A DNA stretch of 64,000 nucleotides, taken from NCBI GenBank assembly GCA_035644115.1, contig DASQPE010000099.1:319-64318 (forward strand), written 5' to 3'. The position numbers and the translations under genes are program-made. Below the pieces are notes generated by a model that saw only the letters and a program-made list of their open reading frames with translations, had not been told where the DNA came from and made no database searches. Positions 5,827-42,597 of the stretch are shown here, piece by piece (positions within the stretch are counted from its first letter, which is position 1; each line of letters opens with the position of its first letter). The stretch comes from Gemmatimonadales bacterium (GTDB lineage: Bacteria > Gemmatimonadota > Gemmatimonadetes > Gemmatimonadales > GWC2-71-9).

Positions 5827-5922
5827 ACGTATCTCCTTGGTTGGGTAGCCTGCTTCATATTAGCGCGGCCTCCCCGATATGCCACGCCACACTTTGGTAA
5901 CGGGAGCCGGTGCAGCGCCCTC

Positions 5923-6798
5923 ATGGAGGTCTCGATTCGCAACTACGGAGCGTGGCACCGGCTCTCCGAGCAGGTGCAGCGGATCCTGATGCCGACCGAT
6001 TGGCCGGCCCGCCTCGCGGTCGCGCTCGGCGCACGCACCGACGTCCAAGTGGAGCGCCACGACCTCACCCTGAGCGATCCGCTGGGGGATGGGTCCACGC
6101 TCCGCATCGCCTTCGCCGCCGACTTCCACGCCGGACCGACCACCTCCTCTGAGGTGCTGCGGAGCGCGGCGCGGGCATTGGAGGCGGAAGCGGCGGATCT
6201 GCTCCTGCTGGGGGGCGACTTCGTGTCCCTGCGCCCCGAGCACGTGGACCGGGTAGCTCCCCTGCTGGCCGGGATCCCCGCTCCACTGGGCCGCTATGCC
6301 GTTCTGGGCAATCATGATTACTGGGCAGGCGCCGACCGGGTCGCCAACGGCTTGAGCGCCGCCGGCATCGAGGTGCTCACCAATCGCTGCGTCCGGCTGC
6401 CGGCTCCGTTCGGCGGGGTGAGCCTGTGCGGGCTGGATGATCACGGTTCGGGTCGGCCCGACGCCGCCGCCGCGCTCTCGGGCGCCGGCCCGGTGAAGCT
6501 GGTCCTGATGCACGCTCCCTCGAGCTTGCTCGACCTCGGCCCGCGGCCCTTCTCGGTCGCCTTCTGCGGCCACACTCACGGCGGACAGATCGCACTGCCC
6601 GGCGGGCGCCCCCTCGTCGTCGCCCATGGCGCCCTTTCCCGTCGCTACAGTCAAGGGCGACACGATCTTGCGCCAGGCAGGACTCTGCTGGTGAGCCGCG
6701 GAATCGGCTGCACGGCGATTCCCCTTCGGCTCAACTCGCCCTCCGCCATCCTCGTGTGCACCTTGCGGGGCGCGATCGCCGGCGGCAAGGGTGCGTAG
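5923..6798 (+). CDS. metallophosphoesterase (YaeI-like)
   Basis: Track ORF with the calcineurin-like phosphoesterase motifs DFHAG, GGDF, GNHDYW and GHTHGGQ. Confidence 0.85.
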   Translation: MEVSIRNYGAWHRLSEQVQRILMPTDWPARLAVALGARTDVQVERHDLTLSDPLGDGSTLRIAFAADFHAGPTTSSEVLRSAARALEAEAADLLLLGGDFVSLRPEHVDRVAPLLAGIPAPLGRYAVLGNHDYWAGADRVANGLSAAGIEVLTNRCVRLPAPFGGVSLCGLDDHGSGRPDAAAALSGAGPVKLVLMHAPSSLLDLGPRPFSVAFCGHTHGGQIALPGGRPLVVAHGALSRRYSQGRHDLAPGRTLLVSRGIGCTAIPLRLNSPSAILVCTLRGAIAGGKGA

Positions 6799-33257: not shown

Positions 33258-34330
33258 GTCGCCGCTTCCGGCAGGGCCTCGCTGTCGATCGACTTGAGGC
33301 CGCGCCGGACCCAACCGGAGAAGACCAGGAAGCCGAACCCGATGGTCAGGTAGGCCAGGATGAAACGCCAGACCAGCGTGTAGACCGGGATCAGCCCCCG
33401 CGGCACGTACGCCGACATCACCGCCGCGCTCAGTAGCTCGGCGATGCCGGACGCGCCCGGCGTCGGGGCGAAGTAGAGCAGGAACATCACCAGAGTTTGA
33501 ACCAGCAGGACATCCACGAAGTTCGCGTGGATGCCCAGCGTGCGGAGGGCCACGTAACCCGCGAGCAGCTTGTTCGCGTGAGAGGGACCCGACAGGATCC
33601 AGGCCAGGCCCAGCGCGGCCCAGCCACGCGGACTGTTGAAGGCGACGACGCTCCCGTGTGCCTCCTCGATGCCGACCGTCAGACGATCGAGGCGGTCCGC
33701 CACCCGCCGGCTGCGCCGACCCGCCAACAGCGCCAGCCGGTGGATCACATTCGCGATGAACCGTGGGAACACGACGATCGTGATGAGCACGGCGCCGATC
33801 GCAGCGACCACGCCAAGGCTGCCGCGGAAGAGATCGTACAGCGAAAGCCCCAGCAGGTTGCCCTTGGTGCCCAGCGAGCGGCCGGCACCGAACGCGATCG
33901 CGAGCGGCCCCGCGATCCCGAAGAAGGCGATCGTGGCGATGAAGCTCATGAGGGTGGCGGTAACCGCCACTGGAAGCGGGATGCCGTAGCGCCGCATGGT
34001 GTACATCGTCATCGGCCCCGCGCCGGAGTTGAGCGGGGTGACGTACGCGCCCCACGCCCCCATGCCGCCGGCGAGAATGCACCCCTTGAGCGGCGGGTGG
34101 GGGACCACATGGCGGGCAAGCACCCACAGCCGAAGACCCCCGCCGATCCAGTCCATCGATGCCAGGCACACGCCGACGAGCAGCCAGCTCCAGTTCAGCC
34201 GCCCGAGCATCGCGACCGAGGCCGAGGCGTCCTTGCCGTACAGAAAAGTGAGACCGTACCCCAGCAGGGAAGCGACCAGGAAGATCTCGAAGCCCCGGAG
34301 CAGGAGCTTGGGAGTCAGCAGGCGGGCCAT
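33254..34330 (-). CDS. UPF0104 / lysylphosphatidylglycerol-synthase-TM-region-like (flippase-like) membrane protein
   Basis: Track ORF of 358 aa, polytopic. The C-terminal motif FAPTPGASGIAELL is typical of this family. Confidence 0.75.
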   Translation of the reverse strand: MARLLTPKLLLRGFEIFLVASLLGYGLTFLYGKDASASVAMLGRLNWSWLLVGVCLASMDWIGGGLRLWVLARHVVPHPPLKGCILAGGMGAWGAYVTPLNSGAGPMTMYTMRRYGIPLPVAVTATLMSFIATIAFFGIAGPLAIAFGAGRSLGTKGNLLGLSLYDLFRGSLGVVAAIGAVLITIVVFPRFIANVIHRLALLAGRRSRRVADRLDRLTVGIEEAHGSVVAFNSPRGWAALGLAWILSGPSHANKLLAGYVALRTLGIHANFVDVLLVQTLVMFLLYFAPTPGASGIAELLSAAVMSAYVPRGLIPVYTLVWRFILAYLTIGFGFLVFSGWVRRGLKSIDSEALPEAAT

Positions 34331-34413
34331 TGGCCGGGAAAGATAGGGGGGAGACGGGAGCGGACGGGAGCGGGCCGGAGCAGGGACCGCCCGCCCCGTT
34401 ATTTTCCCTGCAC

Positions 34414-37221
34414 ATGCCCGAGTCCGTCATCCGCATCGTCAACGCCCGCCAGCATAATCTCCGGGGCGTCACGGTCGATCTTCCCCATCGTTCGTTGATC
34501 GTGATCACCGGACCGTCCGGCTCGGGCAAATCCTCCCTCGCCTTCGATACCCTCTACGCCGAGGGGCAGCGGCGCTACATCGAGTCGCTCTCCACTTATG
34601 CCAAGCAGTTTCTCGAGCGCATGCCCAAGCCGGCGGTCGACCGGCTGGAAGGGCTGGCGCCCGCGGTGGCGATCGAGCAGCGGAACCCGACGGTCTCGAG
34701 CCGCTCGACCGTGGGCACCGCGACCGAGGTCTACGACTATATGCGCCTGCTCTGGGCCCGCCTGGGAAAGACCTGGTGCCGGGCCTGCGGTGCGCCGGTG
34801 CGCCGCGATACGCCTCAGTCGGCTACCGATGACGTCCTCGCGACCCTCCCGGCGGGTACCCGGCTCCAGATCGCGTTTCCCCTACCGCTGAGCGCACGGG
34901 TGACCCACCAGGCGGTGGTCGACAACCTGCGTGCGCTTGGGTTCGTGCGCCTGGTGGCCGACGACGTGCCGCACCACCTCGACGAGCTCCCCCCCAAGCT
35001 CGACCTCACCGCTGCCACCCAGCTCCTGGTCGTCGTCGATCGAATCGTGGCTGGGCCGGAGCAGGGGTCCCGGCTGGCCGAGGCGTTCGGCACCGCCTTC
35101 GCCGAAGGCGAAGGCGTCGGCCTGGCGGTGCACGAGGCGGGCCGGTTGCGCTTCACCGAGTTCCCGGCCTGCAGCCGCTGCGACACTCCGGCGGCGACGG
35201 TCACGCCGGCGCTCTTCTCCTTCAACAATCCTCGCGGCGCCTGTTCGGCCTGCAACGGCTTCGGGGCCACCCTCGAGTATGACGAATCGCTGATCGTCCC
35301 CGATCCGGCACGCAGCCTCGCCCAGGGCGCGATCGATCCCTGGACCAAGCCCCGGTACGAGGGCCGGCGCCGGATCCTGGTCGAGCGGGCCCGCCAGCTC
35401 GACATTGATCCGGCAACGCCGTGGGCCAGGCTCCGGGCCGCGCAGAAGCGGGAGTTGCTCTACGGAAAAAAGGGGCGGTACCTCGGGATCTTCCCCTTCC
35501 TCAAGGGCCTCGAAGAGAAGCGGTACAAGCAGTACATCAGGGTGTTCCTGAGGCAGTACCAGCTCGCTCGCACCTGCGAGGCCTGCCACGGCACCCGGCT
35601 GAACCCGGACGCGCTCGGCGTCCGGATCGGCGACGACACCATCGCGGCCGTAGCGGCCCGCTCGGTGGACGATATTCACGCCTGGGTCCGCAGCCTGCCG
35701 CTTACCCCGTTCGAGCGCCAGATCGGTCAGCTCATCGTCGATCAGCTGGATGGCCGGCTCGGTTTTCTTCGCGACGTGGGCTTGGGCTATCTCACGCTGG
35801 AGCGGCAGACCCGCACGCTCTCCGGCGGCGAAGCTCAGCGCATCTCGCTGGCCAATGCGCTGGGCTCCAATCTGGTCGATTCGCTGTACGTGCTGGACGA
35901 GCCTTCGATCGGTCTCCACCCCCGCGACACCGATCGGCTGCTCGCGCTCCTGCGCCGGCTGCGCGACAACGGCAACACAGTGGTCGTGGTCGAGCACGAC
36001 CTCGCGGCCATTCAGCAGGCCGACTTCATGCTGGAGCTGGGACCCGGGTCGGGCGAGCGGGGCGGCCGGGTGGTGCACGCGGGGCCCGTGGCCGCGGCCA
36101 GCGCCTCGCTCACCGGGCAGTATCTAACCGGCGCCAAGCGGATTGCGGTGCCCAGCGTGCGGCGCCACCCGGGACCGGAGTGGCTGCGCATCCGGGGGGC
36201 GGAGCTGCACAACCTGAAGGCGGTGGACGCGGACATTCCACTCGGCGCCTTCACCGCCGTGACCGGCGTGTCCGGCTCCGGCAAGAGCACGCTGGTGTAC
36301 GACGTCCTCTACCGGAACCTCGAGGCGCGGCTCCACGGCGGCCACTCCGCAAAGTCGCATCTGGGAGAGGCAGTGGGCATGGTGCGCGGACTCACCGGCT
36401 GGGAGCACTTGGAGGACGTGCTCCTGGTAGACCAGTCCCCCATCGGCCGCTCACCCCGGTCCAACCCGGTCACCTACATCAAGGCGTTCGACGAGATCCG
36501 CGAGTTGTTCGCCCAGCAGCCGCTCGCCCGGCAGCGGCGCTACACCGCCGCGACCTTTTCCTTCAACCTCCCGGGCGGCCGCTGCGAAGCGTGCGAAGGC
36601 GCCGGACACGTCCAGGTGGAGATGGTGTTCCTGGCCGACGTGTTCGTGCCCTGCGAGATGTGCGGGGGCAGTCGCTTCAAGTCCGAAGTGCTCGAAGTCC
36701 GGATCCACGGGCACTCGATCCACGACGTCCTTCAGTGGACGGTGGACGAAGCGATCGCCCGTTTCCGCCACCAGGCAAAGCTCGGCGCCTCGCTGTGGCA
36801 TCTGCAACAGGTCGGCCTGGGCTACCTCCGGCTGGGCCAGCCGGCCACCACGCTCTCCGGTGGCGAGGCGCAGCGGCTCAAGATCGCGCGCGAGCTCTCG
36901 GGCTCCGCCAAACGCGACGGCCGCAAGCTCTATCTGCTGGATGAGCCGACCACCGGACTCCACCTCGACGACGTGCGGGTGCTCATCCAGGTGCTCGACC
37001 GTCTGGTGGACGCGGGCCACACGGTCGTGATCATCGAGCACCACCTGGACGTGATCAAGCGGGCCGACTGGATCATCGATCTCGGACCCGAAGCGGGCGA
37101 CGGCGGCGGCCAGGTGGTCGTTCAGGGAACCCCGGAAGACGTCGCGGCGGTCGAGGCCTCCCATACCGGCCGCTATCTCCGTCCCTTGCTTCTGCCGGCC
37201 GCACCAGCGCTCGCCGGATGA
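34414..37221 (+). CDS. uvrA: excinuclease ABC subunit A family ATPase (UvrA or UvrA paralog)
   Basis: ATG 34414 (MPESVIRIVNARQHNLRG) is in frame with track ORF 34330..37221. Two ABC modules (GPSGSGKSSLAFDTLYAEGQRRYIESLS; GVSGSGKSTL), two LSGGEAQR signatures and Cys-rich zinc modules. Confidence 0.85.
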   Translation: MPESVIRIVNARQHNLRGVTVDLPHRSLIVITGPSGSGKSSLAFDTLYAEGQRRYIESLSTYAKQFLERMPKPAVDRLEGLAPAVAIEQRNPTVSSRSTVGTATEVYDYMRLLWARLGKTWCRACGAPVRRDTPQSATDDVLATLPAGTRLQIAFPLPLSARVTHQAVVDNLRALGFVRLVADDVPHHLDELPPKLDLTAATQLLVVVDRIVAGPEQGSRLAEAFGTAFAEGEGVGLAVHEAGRLRFTEFPACSRCDTPAATVTPALFSFNNPRGACSACNGFGATLEYDESLIVPDPARSLAQGAIDPWTKPRYEGRRRILVERARQLDIDPATPWARLRAAQKRELLYGKKGRYLGIFPFLKGLEEKRYKQYIRVFLRQYQLARTCEACHGTRLNPDALGVRIGDDTIAAVAARSVDDIHAWVRSLPLTPFERQIGQLIVDQLDGRLGFLRDVGLGYLTLERQTRTLSGGEAQRISLANALGSNLVDSLYVLDEPSIGLHPRDTDRLLALLRRLRDNGNTVVVVEHDLAAIQQADFMLELGPGSGERGGRVVHAGPVAAASASLTGQYLTGAKRIAVPSVRRHPGPEWLRIRGAELHNLKAVDADIPLGAFTAVTGVSGSGKSTLVYDVLYRNLEARLHGGHSAKSHLGEAVGMVRGLTGWEHLEDVLLVDQSPIGRSPRSNPVTYIKAFDEIRELFAQQPLARQRRYTAATFSFNLPGGRCEACEGAGHVQVEMVFLADVFVPCEMCGGSRFKSEVLEVRIHGHSIHDVLQWTVDEAIARFRHQAKLGASLWHLQQVGLGYLRLGQPATTLSGGEAQRLKIARELSGSAKRDGRKLYLLDEPTTGLHLDDVRVLIQVLDRLVDAGHTVVIIEHHLDVIKRADWIIDLGPEAGDGGGQVVVQGTPEDVAAVEASHTGRYLRPLLLPAAPALAG

Positions 37222-38108
37222 CGCGCCGGCAGGGGATCGCCGCGCTGATCTTCATCGCAATTGTCTGGGGCTGCTGCTTTACCCTCATCAAGCAGACCCT
37301 CACGTTCGTCTCTCCCCTCGTCTTCCTCGCGATCCGTTTCCTGCTCGCCTCGGTCTTCGTGCTGCCCTGGCTCCGGGGCCTCTCCCGCCGGGAGCTCGTC
37401 GGTGGCGTGGTCCTCGGCGCGTTGTTCTGGGCCGGGTTCGTCTTTCAGACGGTTGGACTCCAGTACACGACGCCCAGCCGCTCCGGGTTCATCACCGGCC
37501 TGAGCACGCCGCTGGTGCCTATCGCGTATTTCGCGGTCTACCGCCGGCGGGCAACGCTCACCACTACCCTCGCCGTGATCGTGACCGGCATTGGCATGTA
37601 TCTCCTCACCCGGCCTGGCGGGATGAGCGCGGGCATCAATCTGGGCGACGTCCTCACCCTCGGCTGTGCCGTGCTCTTTGCGTTCCAGATCGTCGCCGCG
37701 GGTCACTACACGCGGATCGCCCGGCCGGAACGGTTGCTGGCGATCGAGCTGGCGATGACGGGCCTGTTGTCGGCCCTGGTCGCCCCGGTGCTCGAGTCGC
37801 CCCGGCTCGCCCTGGTCCCGTCGGTCGCGCTCGCCATCGCGTTCCTGAGCCTGACCGCGGCGGTGACGTTCTACCTGCAGCTGGGAGCCCAAAAGGTGGT
37901 GAGCCCGGCGCTCACGGCGATCATCTTCACGCTCGAGGCGCTGGCGGCCGCGGCTACCAGCTGGATCGTCCTGGGCGAGACACTGACCGTCGGCCAGTGG
38001 ATCGGTGGCACACTCATTCTGGCGGGCGCAGCCCTGCCATTTGTGCGAACGCCTGGTTGGCGCGCATCAGCGGCGTTCCCGGGCGCGAAGGTCGAGTCCG
38101 AGCGATAA
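37218..38108 (+). CDS. EamA/DMT-superfamily transporter
   Basis: Track ORF with an ATGA overlap with the uvrA-family stop. Ten TM segments and two EamA repeats. Confidence 0.85.
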   Translation: MTRRQGIAALIFIAIVWGCCFTLIKQTLTFVSPLVFLAIRFLLASVFVLPWLRGLSRRELVGGVVLGALFWAGFVFQTVGLQYTTPSRSGFITGLSTPLVPIAYFAVYRRRATLTTTLAVIVTGIGMYLLTRPGGMSAGINLGDVLTLGCAVLFAFQIVAAGHYTRIARPERLLAIELAMTGLLSALVAPVLESPRLALVPSVALAIAFLSLTAAVTFYLQLGAQKVVSPALTAIIFTLEALAAAATSWIVLGETLTVGQWIGGTLILAGAALPFVRTPGWRASAAFPGAKVESER

Positions 38109-38123
38109 CGCTCAGCTACCTGT

Positions 38124-38318
38124 CTAACGTGACCTTGTCAAAGTGCTGAGCGGTTGACTGGACGCGACCTCGGTCGTGTCGGTCAAGGCCCGCAGGAACG
38201 CAATCAAGGCGCCCTTTTCCTTGGCTGAGAGATGCAGCGAGTCGGAAGGCAGGGTCTGGTTGGGCAGATCGAGACCGCTGCCAACCGCACCACCGCGATC
38301 GTAGAAGTAACGGATTCG
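38124..38318 (-). pseudogene. 3' remnant of a cytochrome-c-peroxidase/MauG-like gene (64 codons, no start)
   Basis: Read by eye. Directly after, and in frame with, the decarboxylase stop (38319-38321), the minus strand reads RIRYFYDRGGAVGSGLDLPNQTLPSDSLHLSAKEKGALIAFLRALTD... then TAG. It resembles the CCP-family C-terminus (..FY.RGG......L..L.LS..EK..L.AFL..LT). Confidence 0.45.
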
Positions 38319-39746
38319 CTACGGCTCTCGCGTTGCGTGAGCCGCGTCACGAACTAACCGCCAAGCGTCCTCCACCTGCGCCCGCTCGGTACAGCGTTGG
38401 CCGATCGCGAGCCGGATGGCGTACTGGCCGCCCAACGTCGTGTGGGTCAGAAAGACCCGGCCGCTGGCGTTGACCCGCGCAAGCAGCTCACGGTTCAGCT
38501 GCGTGAGCCGCGGATCATCCGCCGAGACCGCTGGTGGACGGTAACGGAAGCAGACCAGGCCGAGCGGGGCCGGCGCCATCAGCTCGAACCCCGGCGTCGC
38601 CTCGATCCATCCCGCCAGCTCCTGGCCCAGCCCCACGTGTCGCCGGAGCATTGCCCGCAGCCCGTCGACGCCGTAGCTCCGGATCACGAACCAGAGCTTG
38701 AGCGCGCGAAATCGCCGGCCCAGCTGGATGCCCCAGTCGCGGAAGTTGACGACGTCGGAGTCGTGAGCGGTCCGGAGATACTCCGGCGTGATGGTGAACG
38801 TCCGAAGCAGTGTGGCCACGTCGCGCACGAAATAGGCGCTGCAGTCGAAGTTGACCAGCAGCCACTTGTGCGGATTGAACACCAGGCTGTCCGCCTGTTC
38901 CACGCCGTCCAGGATCCACCGTAGCTCCGGCAGGATGGCCGCCGACCCCGCCCAGGCCGCGTCCACGTGGAGCCAGGCGCCGTGCCGGCGGCAGAGTTTT
39001 GCGATCGCCGGGACTGGGTCGATCGCCGTGGACGACGTAGTGCCGACCGTGGCGACCACACACGCAGGCACCAGCCCCGCCGCCGCATCGCGGGCCATCG
39101 CGTCCTCCAGCAGGTCGGCTCGAAGCACATAACGCTCGTCCACCGGGATCGATCGCAGGGCCTCTGCACCGTAGCCGGCCAGCTTGACCCCCTTGAGCAC
39201 CGACGAATGCGCCTCCGCCGACGCGTACACCCGGAGTCGCTGGCCCGACTCGGCACCCAGCCGCTCGCCCGCGAAGCCGCTGGCCCGCTCCCGGGCTGAC
39301 AGCAGCGCGACCAGCGTCGCCGTCGATGCGGTGTCCTGGATGACCCCGGTAAATCCCTCCGGCAGCGCGAGCATCTGCGCCAGCCACGCCATGGTCACCT
39401 GTTCCAGCTCGGTGGCCGCCGGCGACGTCTGCCAGGACATGCATTGAGCGGCCAGGGTCGCGGTGAGCATTTCCGCCAGAATCGACGGCGGGCTGTTGTT
39501 CGCCGCGAAGTAGGCGAACCAGCCGGGATGGCTCCAGTGGCTCATGCCCGGCACGATCAGCTGCTCGAAATCGGCGACGATGCGTTCGAACGGCTCGCCC
39601 TCGTCCGGCGGCCCCGGCGGAAGCGAGCGCCGGACGTCGCCCGGCTTCACCTCGGGCACGATCCGCCGCCCGCCGACGTCGCGGAGATAGTCGGCCATCC
39701 AGTCCACGAGCCTATGCCCGTGGGCGCGGAATTCTTCGGGAGTCAT
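38319..39746 (-). CDS. group II PLP-dependent decarboxylase (aromatic-L-amino-acid decarboxylase-like)
   Basis: Track ORF of 475 aa. HWSHPGWFAYFAANNSPPSILAEML, TSTATLVAL, and the PLP-lysine motif FNPHKWLLVNFDCS. Confidence 0.9.
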   Translation of the reverse strand: MTPEEFRAHGHRLVDWMADYLRDVGGRRIVPEVKPGDVRRSLPPGPPDEGEPFERIVADFEQLIVPGMSHWSHPGWFAYFAANNSPPSILAEMLTATLAAQCMSWQTSPAATELEQVTMAWLAQMLALPEGFTGVIQDTASTATLVALLSARERASGFAGERLGAESGQRLRVYASAEAHSSVLKGVKLAGYGAEALRSIPVDERYVLRADLLEDAMARDAAAGLVPACVVATVGTTSSTAIDPVPAIAKLCRRHGAWLHVDAAWAGSAAILPELRWILDGVEQADSLVFNPHKWLLVNFDCSAYFVRDVATLLRTFTITPEYLRTAHDSDVVNFRDWGIQLGRRFRALKLWFVIRSYGVDGLRAMLRRHVGLGQELAGWIEATPGFELMAPAPLGLVCFRYRPPAVSADDPRLTQLNRELLARVNASGRVFLTHTTLGGQYAIRLAIGQRCTERAQVEDAWRLVRDAAHATREP

Positions 39747-39779
39747 GGAACGGGAAGATAAGACGGCGGGAAGAACAGC

Positions 39780-39863
39780 GTGAACGGTAAACGGTGAACG
39801 GTGAACGGGGGAATCCGACGGTCAGCAGACGTCCCTGTTTACTGTTTACTGTTGACTGTTTAC
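39780..39863 (+). repeat. hairpin B: (TGAACGG/TAAACGG)x4 - 22-nt loop - (TGTTTAC/TGTTGAC)x4
   Basis: Read directly. Positions 39780-39810 pair with 39833-39863 over 31 positions: 23 Watson-Crick, 7 G:T and 1 mismatch. The G:T positions pair only in plus-strand RNA. Confidence 0.9.
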
Positions 39864-39893
39864 CGTTGGGTCTTTCTGGGGACTCGGGACGCT

Positions 39894-40547
39894 GTGAAAG
39901 CCACCACGACGGCGCGGCGGGACGGGCTGTGTTTTGACCCCCTCGAAGCCGTGCGCTACCTCGTCGCCGCGGACTCCCGCCTCCGCGGGATCGTCGAAGG
40001 CTCGGGGCCGTTCGACTTTCGACCGGAGCGGACCCAGAGCCTGTTCGCCGCGCTGCTCGAGGCCATCGTGTACCAGCAGCTGACCGGCAAGGCGGCGGAG
40101 ACGATTCTCGGCCGCGTCCTCGCCCTGTTCAGGCCGCGTCGCTACCCAACACCCAACGACCTCCTGCTTCTGCCCGAAGCTCGCCTCCGCTCGGCCGGCC
40201 TGTCGCGGAACAAGACTCTGGCCCTCCAGGACCTCGCCCGCCGCGTGCTCGACGGCACGGTTCCGTCCCTCGCGGCCGCGCGCCGGATGAGCGACGAGGA
40301 GCTGATACAGCGGCTCACGGCGGTGCGCGGGGTCGGTCGGTGGACGGTCGAGATGCTGCTGATCTTCCGGCTGGGCCGCGCCGACGTGCTGCCGGTCAGC
40401 GATCTCGGCATACGCAAGGGGTTCCAGAAAACGTTCGGCATGCGCCGGCTGCCGGCTGCCGTCACCATGACCCGTCGGGCCGAGCGCTGGCGTCCGTACC
40501 GCAGCGTGGCGAGCTGGTTTCTTTGGCGGGCGGCGGAGCTGGACTAG
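39894..40547 (+). CDS. DNA-3-methyladenine glycosylase II family (AlkA-like, HhH-GPD)
   Basis: GTG 39894 is in frame with track ORF 39801..40547; the track start lies inside hairpin B. HhH-GPD pattern LRSAGLSRNKTLALQDLA...VRGVGRWTVEMLLIF...PVSDLGIRKG. Confidence 0.8.
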   Translation: MKATTTARRDGLCFDPLEAVRYLVAADSRLRGIVEGSGPFDFRPERTQSLFAALLEAIVYQQLTGKAAETILGRVLALFRPRRYPTPNDLLLLPEARLRSAGLSRNKTLALQDLARRVLDGTVPSLAAARRMSDEELIQRLTAVRGVGRWTVEMLLIFRLGRADVLPVSDLGIRKGFQKTFGMRRLPAAVTMTRRAERWRPYRSVASWFLWRAAELD

Positions 40548-40548
40548 G

Positions 40549-42597
40549 CTAGCCCGGGCTGGCTAGGAGTCGCCGCGCCTGCGCGATCGCGTCGTGGCTC
40601 CCCGACAACGCCAGAAGATCGCCCTCCAGCAGTAAGGTCTCTGCCGTCGGCAACACGATGGCCTCGTCGCCCCCCCGCGAGAGCGCCACCGCGGTGGCGC
40701 CGGTCCGCCCCCGCAGGTTCAGCTCGGCCAGGGTCGCGCCCGCCGCCGCGCTCCCCGCGTCCACCCGCACCGCGACGAGTGTCCCCAGGCCGGGCAGCAG
40801 ATGCTGGACCTGCTCCAACGTTTCCGACTCGGCGCCCCGGTGCCTGGGACCCAACGCCTCCGCCATCATCTCCGCACCAGCCCGCATGTGCCCCTGGAGA
40901 TTGGTCGCGGTCCGCCAGAATACCATGCCCAGTACGGCCAGGGCCACCACCACCAGGATGGCCCCCTGATACAGGGGCAGGAACGGTTGGGTCACGGCCA
41001 CCAGCGGTATTCCTACCATCAACACGACCGCGATCTGCAGCACCACCACAAAGGCCCGTCTCGGAGCGTCCGCCGGGTCCATCTTGCTGGTGCCCCGGCT
41101 CGGCAGCGCCAGATCGGCAAGCGCGTTGCCCAGTCGGCGCGACGACCGGACCATCCCGACGGCAAACGGCGCCGCGCACACGGCAGCCCCGGCCACGACC
41201 ACCCAGCGCGCCGACCCCTCGGCCATCCCCGCCCGTTCCTGCAGCGTGTCGAGCAGGCGGGGGAGGTTGACCGACGCCCCGATGATGATGCCCCCCAGCA
41301 GCGCCGCGTCCACCGCCACGAACTGCACCGCGCGCCGGATCGGCGTCCAGGGTGTGCTCCGGCCCGGTGCGCCGCGCAGCAGCTCGATCCAGGACCCGTA
41401 GAGGGTGGCAAACGTTTGGAGCGGCCGGGGCAGCCGGCGATCAACGTAGAGCGCCAGCGGCTCGGAGGCGCGGACCAGCCAGGGGCTGGCGAACGCCGTG
41501 ACCACCGATACCGCCGCCGCGACGTGCGGCAGCGCGGCGGCCGATCCCCCTAGGCCGGCGCCGATACCGGCGATGATGAACGCGAACTCCCCTGTGTGGG
41601 CTACGCTCATGCCGGCCCGAACGCTCAGTCGCGTGCCGTGGCCGGTGAGAAACGCCCCGGCGCTCACGCCCACGATCTTGCCGACGATCAGCACGGTCAC
41701 CAGCGCCGCAATGAGCCGCCAGTTCGCCGCGGCGATGGCCGGATCGAGCAGCATGCCCACCGCGACGAAGAAGATCGCGCCGAACATGTCCCGCAGCGGC
41801 CGCACCAGCTGCTCGACCGTTCGGCCCGCCCCCGACTCGTATACCAGGGAGCCTGCGAGAAACGCCCCCAGCGCAACCGAGTACCCGGCCGAGCGGGCGA
41901 GCAGGGCGGCTGCGAAGCAGAGGCCCACGCTCGCCACCAGCGTCGTTTCGGGGCGGCGGAGCCGGGCCACTGCGCGCATCGAAGGCGGCACGACCAGCAG
42001 GCCCAGCGCGAGTGCACCGGCGAGGAAGGCGAGCAAGCGGGCACCGGTGCGTGCGAGATCCGCGCCTGTCAACCCGCCGCCGGAAGCCAGGGCCGTCGCC
42101 ACGGCGATGAGTAGAATCGCCGCCACGTCCTCGAACACGGTGATCGAAAGCACCAGCTCCCGGAGCGGTCCCTCGACCCGGACATCGCCGAGCACGCTTG
42201 CCGCGATCATGGTGCTCGACACCGCTACCACCGCCCCCGCCAGCACGCTTGCCTCCGGGCTCCAGCCGAACAGCCGGCCGACCAGGGTGCCCGACGCCAG
42301 GAGCAGACCCACCTCGAGCAGCACGACCAGCGCTACCCGTGGGCCCATCCGGATGAGGCGCCGGAGACTGAACTCGAGCCCAATCGAGAACATGAGCAAC
42401 ACCACGCCGAGCTCGGCGAGCGTTCGCACCGTCCCGACGTCCGCGACCAGCGGCAGCGGCACGTGCGGGCCGACCACCAGGCCGGCGACGATATAGCCGG
42501 GAACGGCGGGCAGATGAAGTCGCTGGAACCCCACGGACGTCACGGCCGCGACACACAAGACGAGCGCCAGGTCCGTCAGGAAGGCTTGGGCGTCCAT
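40549..42597 (-). CDS. cation:proton antiporter (CPA2/Kef-type) with C-terminal TrkA-C (RCK_C) domain
   Basis: Track ORF of 682 aa. Na+/H+ exchanger TM domain (GYIVAGLVVGP...LMFSIGLEFS) and a C-terminal RCK_C-like segment (LAELNLRGRTGATAVALSRGGDEAIVLP). Confidence 0.85.
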   Translation of the reverse strand: MDAQAFLTDLALVLCVAAVTSVGFQRLHLPAVPGYIVAGLVVGPHVPLPLVADVGTVRTLAELGVVLLMFSIGLEFSLRRLIRMGPRVALVVLLEVGLLLASGTLVGRLFGWSPEASVLAGAVVAVSSTMIAASVLGDVRVEGPLRELVLSITVFEDVAAILLIAVATALASGGGLTGADLARTGARLLAFLAGALALGLLVVPPSMRAVARLRRPETTLVASVGLCFAAALLARSAGYSVALGAFLAGSLVYESGAGRTVEQLVRPLRDMFGAIFFVAVGMLLDPAIAAANWRLIAALVTVLIVGKIVGVSAGAFLTGHGTRLSVRAGMSVAHTGEFAFIIAGIGAGLGGSAAALPHVAAAVSVVTAFASPWLVRASEPLALYVDRRLPRPLQTFATLYGSWIELLRGAPGRSTPWTPIRRAVQFVAVDAALLGGIIIGASVNLPRLLDTLQERAGMAEGSARWVVVAGAAVCAAPFAVGMVRSSRRLGNALADLALPSRGTSKMDPADAPRRAFVVVLQIAVVLMVGIPLVAVTQPFLPLYQGAILVVVALAVLGMVFWRTATNLQGHMRAGAEMMAEALGPRHRGAESETLEQVQHLLPGLGTLVAVRVDAGSAAAGATLAELNLRGRTGATAVALSRGGDEAIVLPTAETLLLEGDLLALSGSHDAIAQARRLLASPG

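What the first reader, a model, noticed from the sequence alone, without database searches (positions are those of the whole stretch)
38124..39863. The decarboxylase gene abuts an in-frame cytochrome-c-peroxidase-like gene remnant, a probable insertion or replacement scar
Seen. The stop codon of the group II PLP decarboxylase (38319-38321, minus strand) is followed immediately, in the same frame, by 64 sense codons and a TAG at 38124-38126. These codons read RIRYFYDRGGAVGSGLDLPNQTLPSDSLHLSAKEKGALIAFLRALTDTTEVASS... There is no start codon and no upstream part of such a gene.

Established knowledge: the extreme C-terminus of di-haem cytochrome c peroxidase/MauG-family proteins typically reads ..FY.RGG......L.LS..EK.DLVAFL..LT.

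Inference: a ccp-like gene was truncated when the decarboxylase gene arrived, or by a deletion that fused the two. The other flank of the decarboxylase gene is hairpin B, so the segment 38319-39780 may be an acquired single-gene insertion. A bacterial aromatic-amino-acid-decarboxylase-like enzyme would make a biogenic amine such as tyramine, tryptamine or phenethylamine. It lies tail to tail with an EamA exporter.
Basis: partly seen in the sequence, partly recalled or inferred. Interest (0 to 1): 0.6.

Follow-up and report, generated by a model that had tools for sequence, protein, structure and literature searches.

The report
Dead peroxidase gene stub beside decarboxylase
The 64 codons after the decarboxylase stop codon are the leftover tail of a destroyed di-haem peroxidase gene, but the decarboxylase is an old resident of this site, so this is ordinary gene decay in a variable slot and not a newly acquired amine-making gene.

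Summary
The decarboxylase gene (38319-39746, minus strand) ends in TAG. It is followed in frame by 64 sense codons and a second TAG at 38124-38126.

The fragment is a true homologue of the last ~50 residues of ~630-aa proteins that fuse an imelysin-like domain to a di-haem cytochrome c peroxidase domain (E 1e-11 against 1.8 billion proteins). It has no haem motifs and no ATG or GTG start. No other part of such a gene lies in the window. Against a 99.3%-identical strain it evolves at the neutral rate, with pN about equal to pS. It is a pseudogene remnant.

The interpretation that the decarboxylase arrived by insertion is refuted. In 43 of 43 related Gemmatimonadales loci the decarboxylase lies tail to tail with uvrA, and its GC3 matches its neighbours. 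"Hairpin B" is a repeat element upstream of the gene that close relatives also carry.

The variable part is the slot between uvrA and the decarboxylase. It is empty in most relatives. Elsewhere it holds EamA, a PhoX-like gene, a phosphoesterase gene, or peroxidase remnants with different break points. Here the remnant is inverted relative to those other remnants, and this orientation is not explained.

Interest is low.

The parts
38127..38318 (-). 64 sense codons: the 3'-terminal remnant (pseudogene fragment) of an imelysin-domain/di-haem cytochrome c peroxidase gene
   Evidence: Translation. phmmer against 1.84e9 proteins matches the last ~50 aa of ~620-650-aa proteins. Those proteins carry Pfam CCP_MauG, and two of the three full-length ones scanned also match Peptidase_M75, one above and one just below its cutoff. 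NCBIfam TIGR04039 (MbnH family) matches at positions 285-329/336, E 1e-3. pN 0.021 is about equal to pS 0.019 against strain L084.
38172..38306 (-). Core of the remnant with detectable homology (FYDRGG...LTDT); equivalent to residues 583-627 of the 632-aa protein P0010
   Evidence: tblastn gives 73% identity over 45 aa, E 8e-15. The DNA alignment shows that homology to intact genes starts at TTCTACGAT, 12-15 nt after the TAG.
38124..38126 (-). TAG that ends the remnant's reading frame; 15 nt from the EamA stop codon on the other strand
38319..38321 (-). TAG stop of the decarboxylase. The rearrangement junction lies within about 36 nt around it (38303-38340).
   Evidence: The decarboxylase tail HATREP* diverges from the nearest relatives (HDLARRPASDEAAG*) after the conserved AAH. 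ccp homology starts at 38306.
38319..39746 (-). Group II PLP-dependent (aromatic-amino-acid-type) decarboxylase; intact and resident at this locus
   Evidence: Pfam PF00282 at 4e-107 over the full profile. PDB 7xin at 6.5e-146. The NPHK PLP-lysine motif is present. Synteny holds in 43/43 relatives. GC3 is 0.861.
37218..38108 (+). EamA/DMT transporter gene. Its start overlaps the uvrA stop by 4 nt. It is present in the slot in all nine close relatives examined (decarboxylase identity 80% or more).
   Evidence: Pfam EamA at 8e-26
34330..37221 (+). uvrA, the conserved outer boundary of the variable slot
39780..39867 (.). 'Hairpin B': two arrays of 7-nt repeats that form a long hairpin in the divergent intergenic region between the decarboxylase and the HhH-GPD gene. 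It is not an insertion boundary.
   Evidence: TRF finds GTGAACG x4.1 and CTGTTTA x4.7. The fold is -52.2 kcal/mol, z -6.6. Comparable arrays lie upstream of the decarboxylase gene in L084, L040 and L167, with one arm in L171. There is a 7-nt copy-number difference against L084.

Best explanation

The decarboxylase is an old, vertically inherited resident. In Gemmatimonadales it lies tail to tail with uvrA. The space between these two gene ends is a variable slot. It has carried an accessory cassette (EamA transporter, PhoX-like protein, PF04185 phosphoesterase, imelysin-CCP) that is being removed piecemeal by deletions in different lineages.

In this genome a rearrangement removed about 90% of the peroxidase gene. 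One break point lies within a few codons of the decarboxylase stop codon, and the other lies at about peroxidase codon 578-582. The stub has no start codon, no haem-binding motif and no signal peptide. It now drifts neutrally as the spacer and 3' untranslated region between the convergent decarboxylase and EamA genes.

Shown: the homology, the truncation, the synteny, the neutral substitution pattern and the variable slot. Inferred: that a deletion, not an insertion, made the junction, and that the in-frame position is coincidental. Unresolved: why the stub lies on the decarboxylase strand, when the three other ccp remnants found in this slot lie on the uvrA strand. An extra inversion, or a ccp copy that sat in the opposite orientation in this sub-lineage, is required.
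For: Homology
- The fragment matches the C-terminal ends of ~620-650-aa proteins. These proteins carry CCP_MauG, and some also match Peptidase_M75.
- The di-haem domain of P0010 aligns with PDB 6e1c through to the same C-terminal LS..EK.DL.AFL..LTD segment.
- Only residues 583-627 are present in the window.

Loss of function
- The fragment has no Cys, no Met, and no ATG or GTG.
- Against the same-species contig L084 (99.3% nt identity over 7.9 kb) the fragment has 4 substitutions in 195 nt, with pN 0.021 and pS 0.019. The pooled flanking genes have pN 0.0021 and pS 0.0151.

The decarboxylase is resident
- In 43/43 loci the decarboxylase and uvrA are convergent. In 24 of them the gap is 200 nt or less.
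- Its GC3 is 0.861, against 0.87-0.88 for the neighbours.
- Its C-terminal core is intact and its tail length is within the range seen in relatives.

Variable slot
- EamA only: L004, L167-169, L171, L172.
- EamA plus a PhoX-like pseudogene plus a phosphoesterase: L166.
- EamA plus a phosphoesterase: L164.
- PhoX-like only: L009, and L032 (contig ends before uvrA).
- PhoX-like plus a ccp remnant covering residues 34-145 and 471-566: L029.
- A PhoX N-terminus fused in frame to the ccp C-terminus: L100.
- A ccp C-terminal remnant starting 17 nt after the uvrA stop: L098.

Other support
- L098 and L100 share a 97.5%-identical ccp C-terminal remnant plus decarboxylase segment but have different deletion end points.
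- A PhoX-like or phosphoesterase gene sits beside the imelysin-CCP gene in many metagenome loci.
Against: - No relative with an intact ccp gene in this slot was found, so the ancestral state is reconstructed from remnants.
- The stub here, in L084 and in the P0001 contig is on the decarboxylase strand. In L029, L098 and L100 the remnant is on the uvrA strand. A simple deletion from the arrangement seen in those relatives cannot produce it.
- The P0001 contig has an EamA only 77% identical but carries a 72-75%-identical stub in the same place and orientation. That is too similar for a remnant that has drifted neutrally since the two lineages split. Either ccp was intact in both until recently, or the region was exchanged by recombination, or the stub is constrained.
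- All four substitutions against L084 lie in the 27-nt stretch 38144-38170 of the tail. None lies in the ~148-nt CCP-homologous core (P about 0.11 under neutrality). The neutrality test therefore has little power for the core.
Confidence: 0.82

Rival explanations
1. One reading: the decarboxylase gene (38319-39780) is a recently acquired single-gene insertion that landed in and truncated a resident ccp gene, with hairpin B as its other boundary.
For: The remnant abuts the decarboxylase stop codon. A strong hairpin lies on the other flank.
Against: The decarboxylase occupies the same position between HhH-GPD and uvrA in 43/43 related loci at 62-99% identity. Its GC3 is the same as that of its neighbours. 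No tRNA gene lies within 2 kb on either side, and the genes flanking it are HhH-GPD, EamA and uvrA, not mobility genes. The 7-mer-array hairpin is also present upstream of the decarboxylase in L040, L084 and L167. No 5' part of ccp lies on the other side of the decarboxylase.
Confidence: 0.02
2. The stub is retained because it is functional. It could act as a C-terminal extension of the decarboxylase through TAG read-through, as a small peptide, or as a selected 3'-UTR, terminator or spacer element shared by the convergent decarboxylase and EamA genes.
For: It is in frame with the decarboxylase. A 72-75%-identical stub with an ATG start and no frame disruption sits in the same place in a lineage whose EamA is only 77% identical. 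C-terminal ccp stubs recur in at least five contexts: the window, L001, L003, L098 and L100. No substitutions are seen in the CCP-homologous core against L084.
Against: The stub has no ATG or GTG start here. pN/pS is about 1, and pN is ten times that of the flanking genes. The scans find no terminator-like site and no Rfam match. The fold energy of the region is not exceptional (z -1.8). Six close relatives join EamA and the decarboxylase directly with gaps of about 10 nt or an overlap, so no spacer is needed. The recurrence of C-terminal stubs is largely an ascertainment effect of searching with a C-terminal query. A 50-aa piece without haem ligands has no plausible peroxidase activity (inference).
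Confidence: 0.07
3. A sub-variant of the main explanation. The stub is the 3' end of an ancestral ccp gene that was convergent on the decarboxylase, as in L029, L098 and L100. That 3' end was inverted in place, and the rest of the cassette was then deleted back to the EamA stop codon.
For: The three other ccp remnants found in this slot are on the uvrA strand, with the ccp stop 8 nt from the decarboxylase stop. After inversion of just that 3' piece, the broken end would abut the decarboxylase stop and the ccp stop would face EamA. This is exactly what is seen.
Against: No inverted repeats of note flank the stub. The model requires two events with tightly placed break points. The stub is closer in sequence to L003, L089 and P0001 (75-86%) than to L098 and L100 (55-62%), although 50 aa gives little resolution.
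Confidence: 0.25

Closest known systems
MbnH-type / MauG-like di-haem enzymes of the bacterial CCP_MauG superfamily (PDB 6e1c 'Di-heme enzyme'; NCBIfam TIGR04039 'MbnH family di-heme enzyme'; Pfam PF03150)
   Same: The fragment aligns with the extreme C-terminal segment of this group. TIGR04039 matches at positions 285-329 of 336 (E 1e-3), and 6e1c matches at residues 341-367 of 388. Full-length relatives of the fragment align with 6e1c over the whole di-haem domain, including ...L(S/T)A.EK.DL.AFL.TLTD (2e-38).
   Different: Only the last ~50 residues are present. Both CXXCH motifs, the PYMHNG methionine-ligand motif, the signal peptide and the start codon are missing. The parent family also carries a ~300-aa N-terminal region with weak matches to the imelysin profile, and the 388-aa chain of 6e1c has no counterpart to that region.
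Imelysin-like domain fused to a peroxidase domain (noted in Xu et al. 2011, PMC3143127)
   Same: Two of the three ~620-640-aa full-length relatives scanned combine an N-terminal match to the imelysin profile (Pfam Peptidase_M75, one above and one just below its cutoff) with a C-terminal di-haem peroxidase domain. [quoted passage not shown]
   Different: The paper describes fusions to an 'EfeB-like' domain. Here the partner is a CCP_MauG domain. The link to PhoX-like and phosphoesterase neighbours is my observation, and I did not look for it in the literature.
Ordinary bacterial pseudogene remnants left by deletion between conserved genes
   Same: The fragment is truncated, has no start codon, has pN/pS of about 1, lies between two conserved genes, and differs in extent between related genomes.
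   Different: It is inverted relative to the other remnants of the same gene in the same slot. It is also unusually well preserved compared with a stub in a lineage with 77% EamA identity.
Aromatic-L-amino-acid / DOPA decarboxylases (group II PLP decarboxylases)
   Same: The neighbouring intact gene aligns end to end with PDB 7xin DOPA decarboxylase (6.5e-146) and with plant and animal AADC/TyDC enzymes. It matches Pfam PF00282 in full.
   Different: The substrate is unknown, and no NCBIfam equivalog threshold is reached. It is a conserved chromosomal gene of Gemmatimonadales, not an acquired one.

Membership tests
Bacterial di-haem cytochrome c peroxidase / MauG / MbnH superfamily (functional member) | Two c-type haem-binding CXXCH motifs | tested here: not met
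   The 64-aa translation contains no cysteine. tblastn with full-length P0010 finds no other part of the gene in the window.
Bacterial di-haem cytochrome c peroxidase / MauG / MbnH superfamily (functional member) | Conserved PYMHNG segment (the methionine in it is, from my own knowledge of the family, a haem ligand) upstream of the C-terminal helices | tested here: not met
   Homology begins at FYDRGG. The longer remnants and intact genes (L001, L098, L089) have ...APYMHNG... before it, and the window does not.
Bacterial di-haem cytochrome c peroxidase / MauG / MbnH superfamily (functional member) | Complete ORF with a start codon and an export signal | tested here: not met
   There is no ATG or GTG in the frame, and the frame opens directly after the decarboxylase TAG.
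Bacterial di-haem cytochrome c peroxidase / MauG / MbnH superfamily (descent from the family) | Significant sequence similarity to the family, in register with the C-terminus | tested here: met
   456 hits at E<=1e-3. Full-length hits match at residues ~565-630 of ~620-650 aa. Those proteins carry PF03150. TIGR04039 matches at E 1e-3 at the profile's C-terminal end. The Pfam PF03150 model itself does not cover this segment, so it gives no direct Pfam hit.
Group II PLP-dependent decarboxylase (Pfam PF00282), AADC-like | Full-length match to the family profile, and the PLP-binding lysine motif (NPHK) | tested here: met
   PF00282 matches 1-375/375 at E 4e-107. ...VFNPHKWLLV... is in the translation. 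The best PDB hit is 7xin at 6.5e-146.
Group II PLP-dependent decarboxylase (Pfam PF00282), AADC-like | Substrate (tyrosine, tryptophan, phenylalanine or DOPA) | not testable with these tools
   No NCBIfam equivalog cutoff is reached.
Recently acquired gene / genomic islet (claimed for the decarboxylase) | Absent from the same site in related genomes | tested here: not met
   It is present between HhH-GPD and uvrA in 43/43 related loci.
Recently acquired gene / genomic islet (claimed for the decarboxylase) | Atypical base composition or codon usage | tested here: not met
   GC3 is 0.861, against 0.873 for uvrA, 0.872 for EamA, 0.882 for HhH-GPD, and a window background of 0.835 +/- 0.04.
Recently acquired gene / genomic islet (claimed for the decarboxylase) | Boundary features such as a tRNA gene, an integrase or flanking repeats | tested here: not met
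   There is no tRNA gene in 36000-42000. No meaningful repeats lie around the junction. Hairpin B is shared with relatives.
Pseudogene remnant | Relaxed selective constraint relative to the flanking genes | tested here: met
   Against L084 the fragment has pN 0.021 and pS 0.019. The flanks have pN 0.0021 and pS 0.0151. Only four substitutions are involved, all in the tail, so the power is low.

The most novel reading that the evidence does not exclude
The C-terminal stubs of the imelysin-CCP gene may not be mere debris. On this reading they are repeatedly retained under selection. They are found abutting the stop codon of an upstream gene (the window, L003, L098) or fused in frame to another ORF (L100). 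One is preserved at 72-75% amino-acid identity in a lineage whose EamA is only 77% identical. They might act, for example, as a 3'-end element for the convergent genes or as a translated peptide or extension. More broadly, the uvrA/decarboxylase junction of Gemmatimonadales would be a recombination hot spot, where a phosphate- or iron-related periplasmic cassette is exchanged and eroded.
Probability: 0.08. Interest if true: 0.4.

Novelty: already known. Interest (0 to 1): 0.15.

Why it matters
The finding matters mainly as a correction. The appealing reading, a horizontally acquired biogenic-amine gene that disrupted a peroxidase gene, is wrong. The decarboxylase is a conserved core-like gene of Gemmatimonadales, paired with uvrA and a DNA glycosylase gene. 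Anyone annotating this genome should mark 38124-38318 as a pseudogene fragment and should not infer recent transfer of the decarboxylase.

A secondary, modest point concerns the uvrA-decarboxylase slot. It gives a clear small-scale example of stepwise erosion of an accessory cassette (EamA, PhoX-like, phosphoesterase, imelysin-CCP). Different deletion end points are seen in near-identical DNA. The example could be useful for studies of deletion bias and of recombination junctions in uncultured soil bacteria.

Tried and rejected
- A Pfam scan of the 64-aa fragment gave no CCP hit. This is because PF03150 covers only the N-terminal haem domain, so it is not evidence against homology.
- The PDB phmmer search with the fragment was dominated by spurious polyubiquitin repeat hits. 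The only relevant hit, 6e1c, was weak (E 0.32).
- The word-indexed protein search returned only five short proteins. This at first suggested a conserved mini-ORF. Their contigs showed that they are remnants or pieces of frameshifted or N-containing genes.
- The P0001 contig would show what lies upstream of the stub in a diverged relative. It has no retrievable DNA, and it was not in the metagenome collection that was scanned.
- L170, the relative with the closest EamA (88%), ends 22 nt after EamA.
- The terminator and promoter scan, the Rfam scan, the tRNA scan and the repeat search around the junction found nothing that marks an insertion or a functional RNA.
- The fragment's GC3 (0.70) is lower than that of its neighbours. 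However, the last 50 codons of the intact L089 gene have the same value, so this does not discriminate decay from origin.
- I considered and rejected chance similarity (E 1e-11 in 1.8e9 sequences) and any significance of the shared frame (1 in 3).
Full report
**Observation**

On the minus strand the 475-codon ORF 38319-39746 ends in TAG at 38319-38321. The same frame continues for 64 sense codons (RIRYFYDRGGAVGSGLDLPNQTLPSDSLHLSAKEKGALIAFLRALTDTTEVASSQPLSTLTRSR) to a TAG at 38124-38126.

The ORF is a group II PLP-dependent decarboxylase. It matches Pfam PF00282 over the whole profile (E 4e-107). Its best solved relative is a DOPA decarboxylase, PDB 7xin, at 6.5e-146, followed by other aromatic-amino-acid decarboxylases.

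On the plus strand uvrA (34330-37221) is followed by an EamA/DMT transporter gene (37218-38108). The EamA stop lies 15 nt from the second TAG.

The fragment has no ATG or GTG. Neither the open frame (probability about 0.26 at this GC content, my calculation) nor the shared frame (1 in 3) is remarkable by itself.

**What the fragment is**

A full HMMER scan of 1.84 billion representative proteins gave 456 hits at E<=1e-3. The full-length hits are ~620-650 aa and are matched at their very end. For example, P0010 (632 aa) matches at E 1e-11 with 69% identity, fragment residues 4-52 aligning to its residues 582-630.

These proteins carry the Pfam di-haem peroxidase domain CCP_MauG in their second half. 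Two of the three scanned also match the imelysin profile (Peptidase_M75) in their first half, one above and one just below its cutoff. The di-haem half of P0010 aligns with PDB 6e1c ('Di-heme enzyme') right through the C-terminal ...LSAAEKRDLVAFLGTLTDT segment (2e-38). The fragment itself hits NCBIfam TIGR04039 (MbnH family) at profile positions 285-329 of 336 (E 1e-3).

Imelysin-like proteins that are encoded next to peroxidases, or fused to them, have been described (PMC3143127).

tblastn with P0010 finds only 38306-38172 in the whole 64-kb window. A DNA alignment with intact genes shows that homology starts at TTCTACGAT, 12-15 nt after the decarboxylase TAG. The fragment therefore lacks both CXXCH motifs, the PYMHNG motif, the N-terminal 90% of the gene and any start. 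It descends from the family but cannot be a working member.

**Is it decaying?**

A metagenome contig of the same species, L084, is 99.3% identical over 7.9 kb and has the identical arrangement. The table compares the fragment with the pooled uvrA, EamA and decarboxylase genes.

| Region | pN | pS | Substitutions |
|---|---|---|---|
| Flanking genes, pooled | 0.0021 | 0.0151 | 29 (8 non-synonymous, 21 synonymous) |
| Fragment (195 nt) | 0.021 | 0.019 | 4 |

The fragment changes at the synonymous rate, and its non-synonymous rate is ten times that of the flanking genes. This is what a pseudogene should show.

There is a caveat. All four changes lie in the non-conserved tail (38144-38170). Zero changes in the ~148-nt core is only weakly unexpected under neutrality (P about 0.11).

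No terminator-like site, Rfam family or exceptional fold was found in the fragment.

**Is the decarboxylase the newcomer?**

No. A scan of one genome per species returned 80 loci. Further contigs came from the metagenome scan with the fragment and from lookups of EamA homologues.

In all 43 loci that contain both gene ends, the decarboxylase (62-99% identical) is convergent on uvrA. In most of them HhH-GPD, and often the KefB-like gene, lies on its other side, as in the window. Nearly all of the records that carry a title are titled Gemmatimonadales, Gemmatimonadota or Gemmatimonas MAGs.

The decarboxylase GC3 is 0.861. That compares with 0.873 (uvrA), 0.872 (EamA) and 0.882 (HhH-GPD). Its conserved C-terminal core (...AWRLVRDAA) is intact. 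Its short tail is within the length range of relatives, though it diverges from the nearest ones after AAH. This places the junction within about 36 nt around the TAG. No tRNA gene is nearby.

'Hairpin B' (39780-39867) consists of two arrays of 7-nt repeats that fold into a -52 kcal/mol hairpin. It lies in the divergent intergenic region. Comparable arrays precede the decarboxylase gene in L084, L040 and L167. It is a lineage feature of the 5' region and not an insertion boundary.

**What varies is the slot between uvrA and the decarboxylase**

In 24 of the 43 loci the two stop codons are 200 nt or less apart. All nine close relatives (decarboxylase identity 80% or more) have EamA in the slot. 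The occupied states are as follows.

| Slot content | Loci |
|---|---|
| EamA only, joined to the decarboxylase with ~10-nt gaps or an overlap | L004, L167-169, L171, L172 |
| EamA, a split PhoX-like gene and a PF04185 phosphoesterase | L166 |
| EamA and the phosphoesterase | L164 |
| PhoX-like gene only | L009, and L032 (contig ends before uvrA) |
| PhoX-like gene plus a ccp remnant (residues 34-145 and 471-566) running into the decarboxylase end | L029 |
| N-terminal 165 codons of the PhoX-like gene fused in frame to the last 66 ccp codons | L100 |
| ccp remnant from residue ~553, starting 17 nt after the uvrA stop | L098 |
| GDSL lipase | L037 |

L098 and L100 share 97.5%-identical DNA across the stub and the decarboxylase end, but they have different deletion end points. 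Their uvrA parts are only 83.5% identical. This points to recent independent deletions, and to recombination or chimeric assembly at this junction.

In metagenomes at large, the imelysin-CCP gene often sits next to a co-directional PhoX-like or phosphoesterase gene. L089 carries an intact phosphoesterase followed by a 634-aa CCP gene whose tail is 79% identical to the fragment.

The simplest reading is that an accessory cassette (EamA, PhoX-like, phosphoesterase, imelysin-CCP) once sat between uvrA and the decarboxylase and is being deleted piecemeal. The window holds one late stage of that process.

**What is not explained**

In L029, L098 and L100 the ccp remnant lies on the uvrA strand, convergent on the decarboxylase. 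In the window, in L084 and in the contig carrying P0001 it lies on the decarboxylase strand. Either the 3' end of ccp was inverted before the rest was lost, or this sub-lineage carried ccp in the other orientation and a single deletion ran from the decarboxylase tail to about ccp codon 580. No inverted repeats mark the ends.

The P0001 stub also raises a question. It is 71 aa with an ATG start, is 72-75% identical, and shows some tail similarity. It sits beside an EamA that is only 77% identical. That is more similar than neutral drift since the split would allow. Recent independent truncation, recombination of the region, or some constraint on the stub would each explain it. Its DNA could not be retrieved.

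**Comparison with known things, and verdict**

The parent gene belongs to the CCP/MauG/MbnH di-haem superfamily, in the form fused to an imelysin-like N-terminal region. The stub fails every functional criterion of that family and meets only the criterion of descent.

The decarboxylase is an AADC-type enzyme of unknown substrate, conserved in the order. The proposed history, that the decarboxylase arrived as an insertion, is contradicted. The alternative of a deletion or rearrangement is the supported one.

This is an ordinary pseudogene remnant in a variable intergenic slot, so interest is low. The residual novel possibility is that such C-terminal stubs are retained for a reason, or that the slot is a recombination hot spot. 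I put this at about 8%.

Noticed in passing
window 39780-39867 (and L084 ~135-215, L040 ~5893-5975, L167 ~2820-2880 on the minus strand): Two arrays of 7-nt repeats (GTGAACG x4, CTGTTTA x4.7) form a long hairpin (-52 kcal/mol, z -6.6) about 35 nt upstream of the decarboxylase ATG. Comparable arrays occur in some close relatives, only one arm occurs in L171, and none occurs in L004, L005, L166 or L172. L084 has one unit fewer. A TATCTT-like box lies 11-16 nt before the ATG in all of them, which suggests a very short or absent leader and a repeat-based regulatory site.
   Followed up: partly
window 39801-39896: The mechanical HhH-GPD ORF starts at GTG 39801 and runs through hairpin B. Relatives align only from about residue 32-43, so the real start is probably the in-frame GTG at 39894. 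That makes the decarboxylase/HhH-GPD intergenic region 147 nt long.
   Followed up: partly
L100 1069-1755: An in-frame chimeric ORF. It joins the N-terminal ~165 aa of the PhoX-like protein, which begins with a hydrophobic stretch ending ...LTLAAC that looks like a lipoprotein signal, directly to the last 66 aa of the imelysin-CCP protein (...EGFTDGW|LHNGVYRTLEQVVDFYDRGG...).
   Followed up: partly
L098 vs L100: Mosaic identity. The uvrA parts are 83.5% identical in DNA, whereas the ccp stub plus the decarboxylase 3' end are 97.5% identical. The two contigs also have different deletion end points. This reflects either recombination at the slot or a chimeric metagenome assembly.
   Followed up: partly
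L003 340-551: Another ccp C-terminal stub (HNGAFETLAQVVEFYDRGG...) begins 2-3 nt after the TAG of an upstream co-directional gene whose C-terminus I read as pirin-like (not scanned). Its genomic context is different, with what looks like an SGNH-type hydrolase gene downstream (not scanned).
   Followed up: no
L089 3783-3974 (minus strand): Directly downstream of the intact phosphoesterase and imelysin-CCP pair lies an ORF whose end (...WRRDYNEVRPHGSLGNLTPAEF...) I read, from its sequence alone, as the C-terminus of an IS3-type transposase. This would hint that the cassette can sit next to mobile DNA.
   Followed up: no
L086-L163 (about 35 of 80 metagenome loci): The imelysin/di-haem peroxidase gene is very often directly preceded or followed by a co-directional PhoX-like (PF05787) or PF04185 phosphoesterase gene. 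This suggests a conserved functional pairing of periplasmic phosphoesterases with this peroxidase.
   Followed up: partly
L166 5949-7182: The PhoX-like gene in this close relative is split over two reading frames and lacks its last ~100 codons. It is a second decaying cassette gene in the same slot.
   Followed up: no
window 37218-37221: The EamA start codon overlaps the uvrA stop by 4 nt (ATGA). The same overlap is seen in the P0001 contig, L164, L166 and L167, so EamA is transcriptionally coupled to uvrA in this clade.
   Followed up: no
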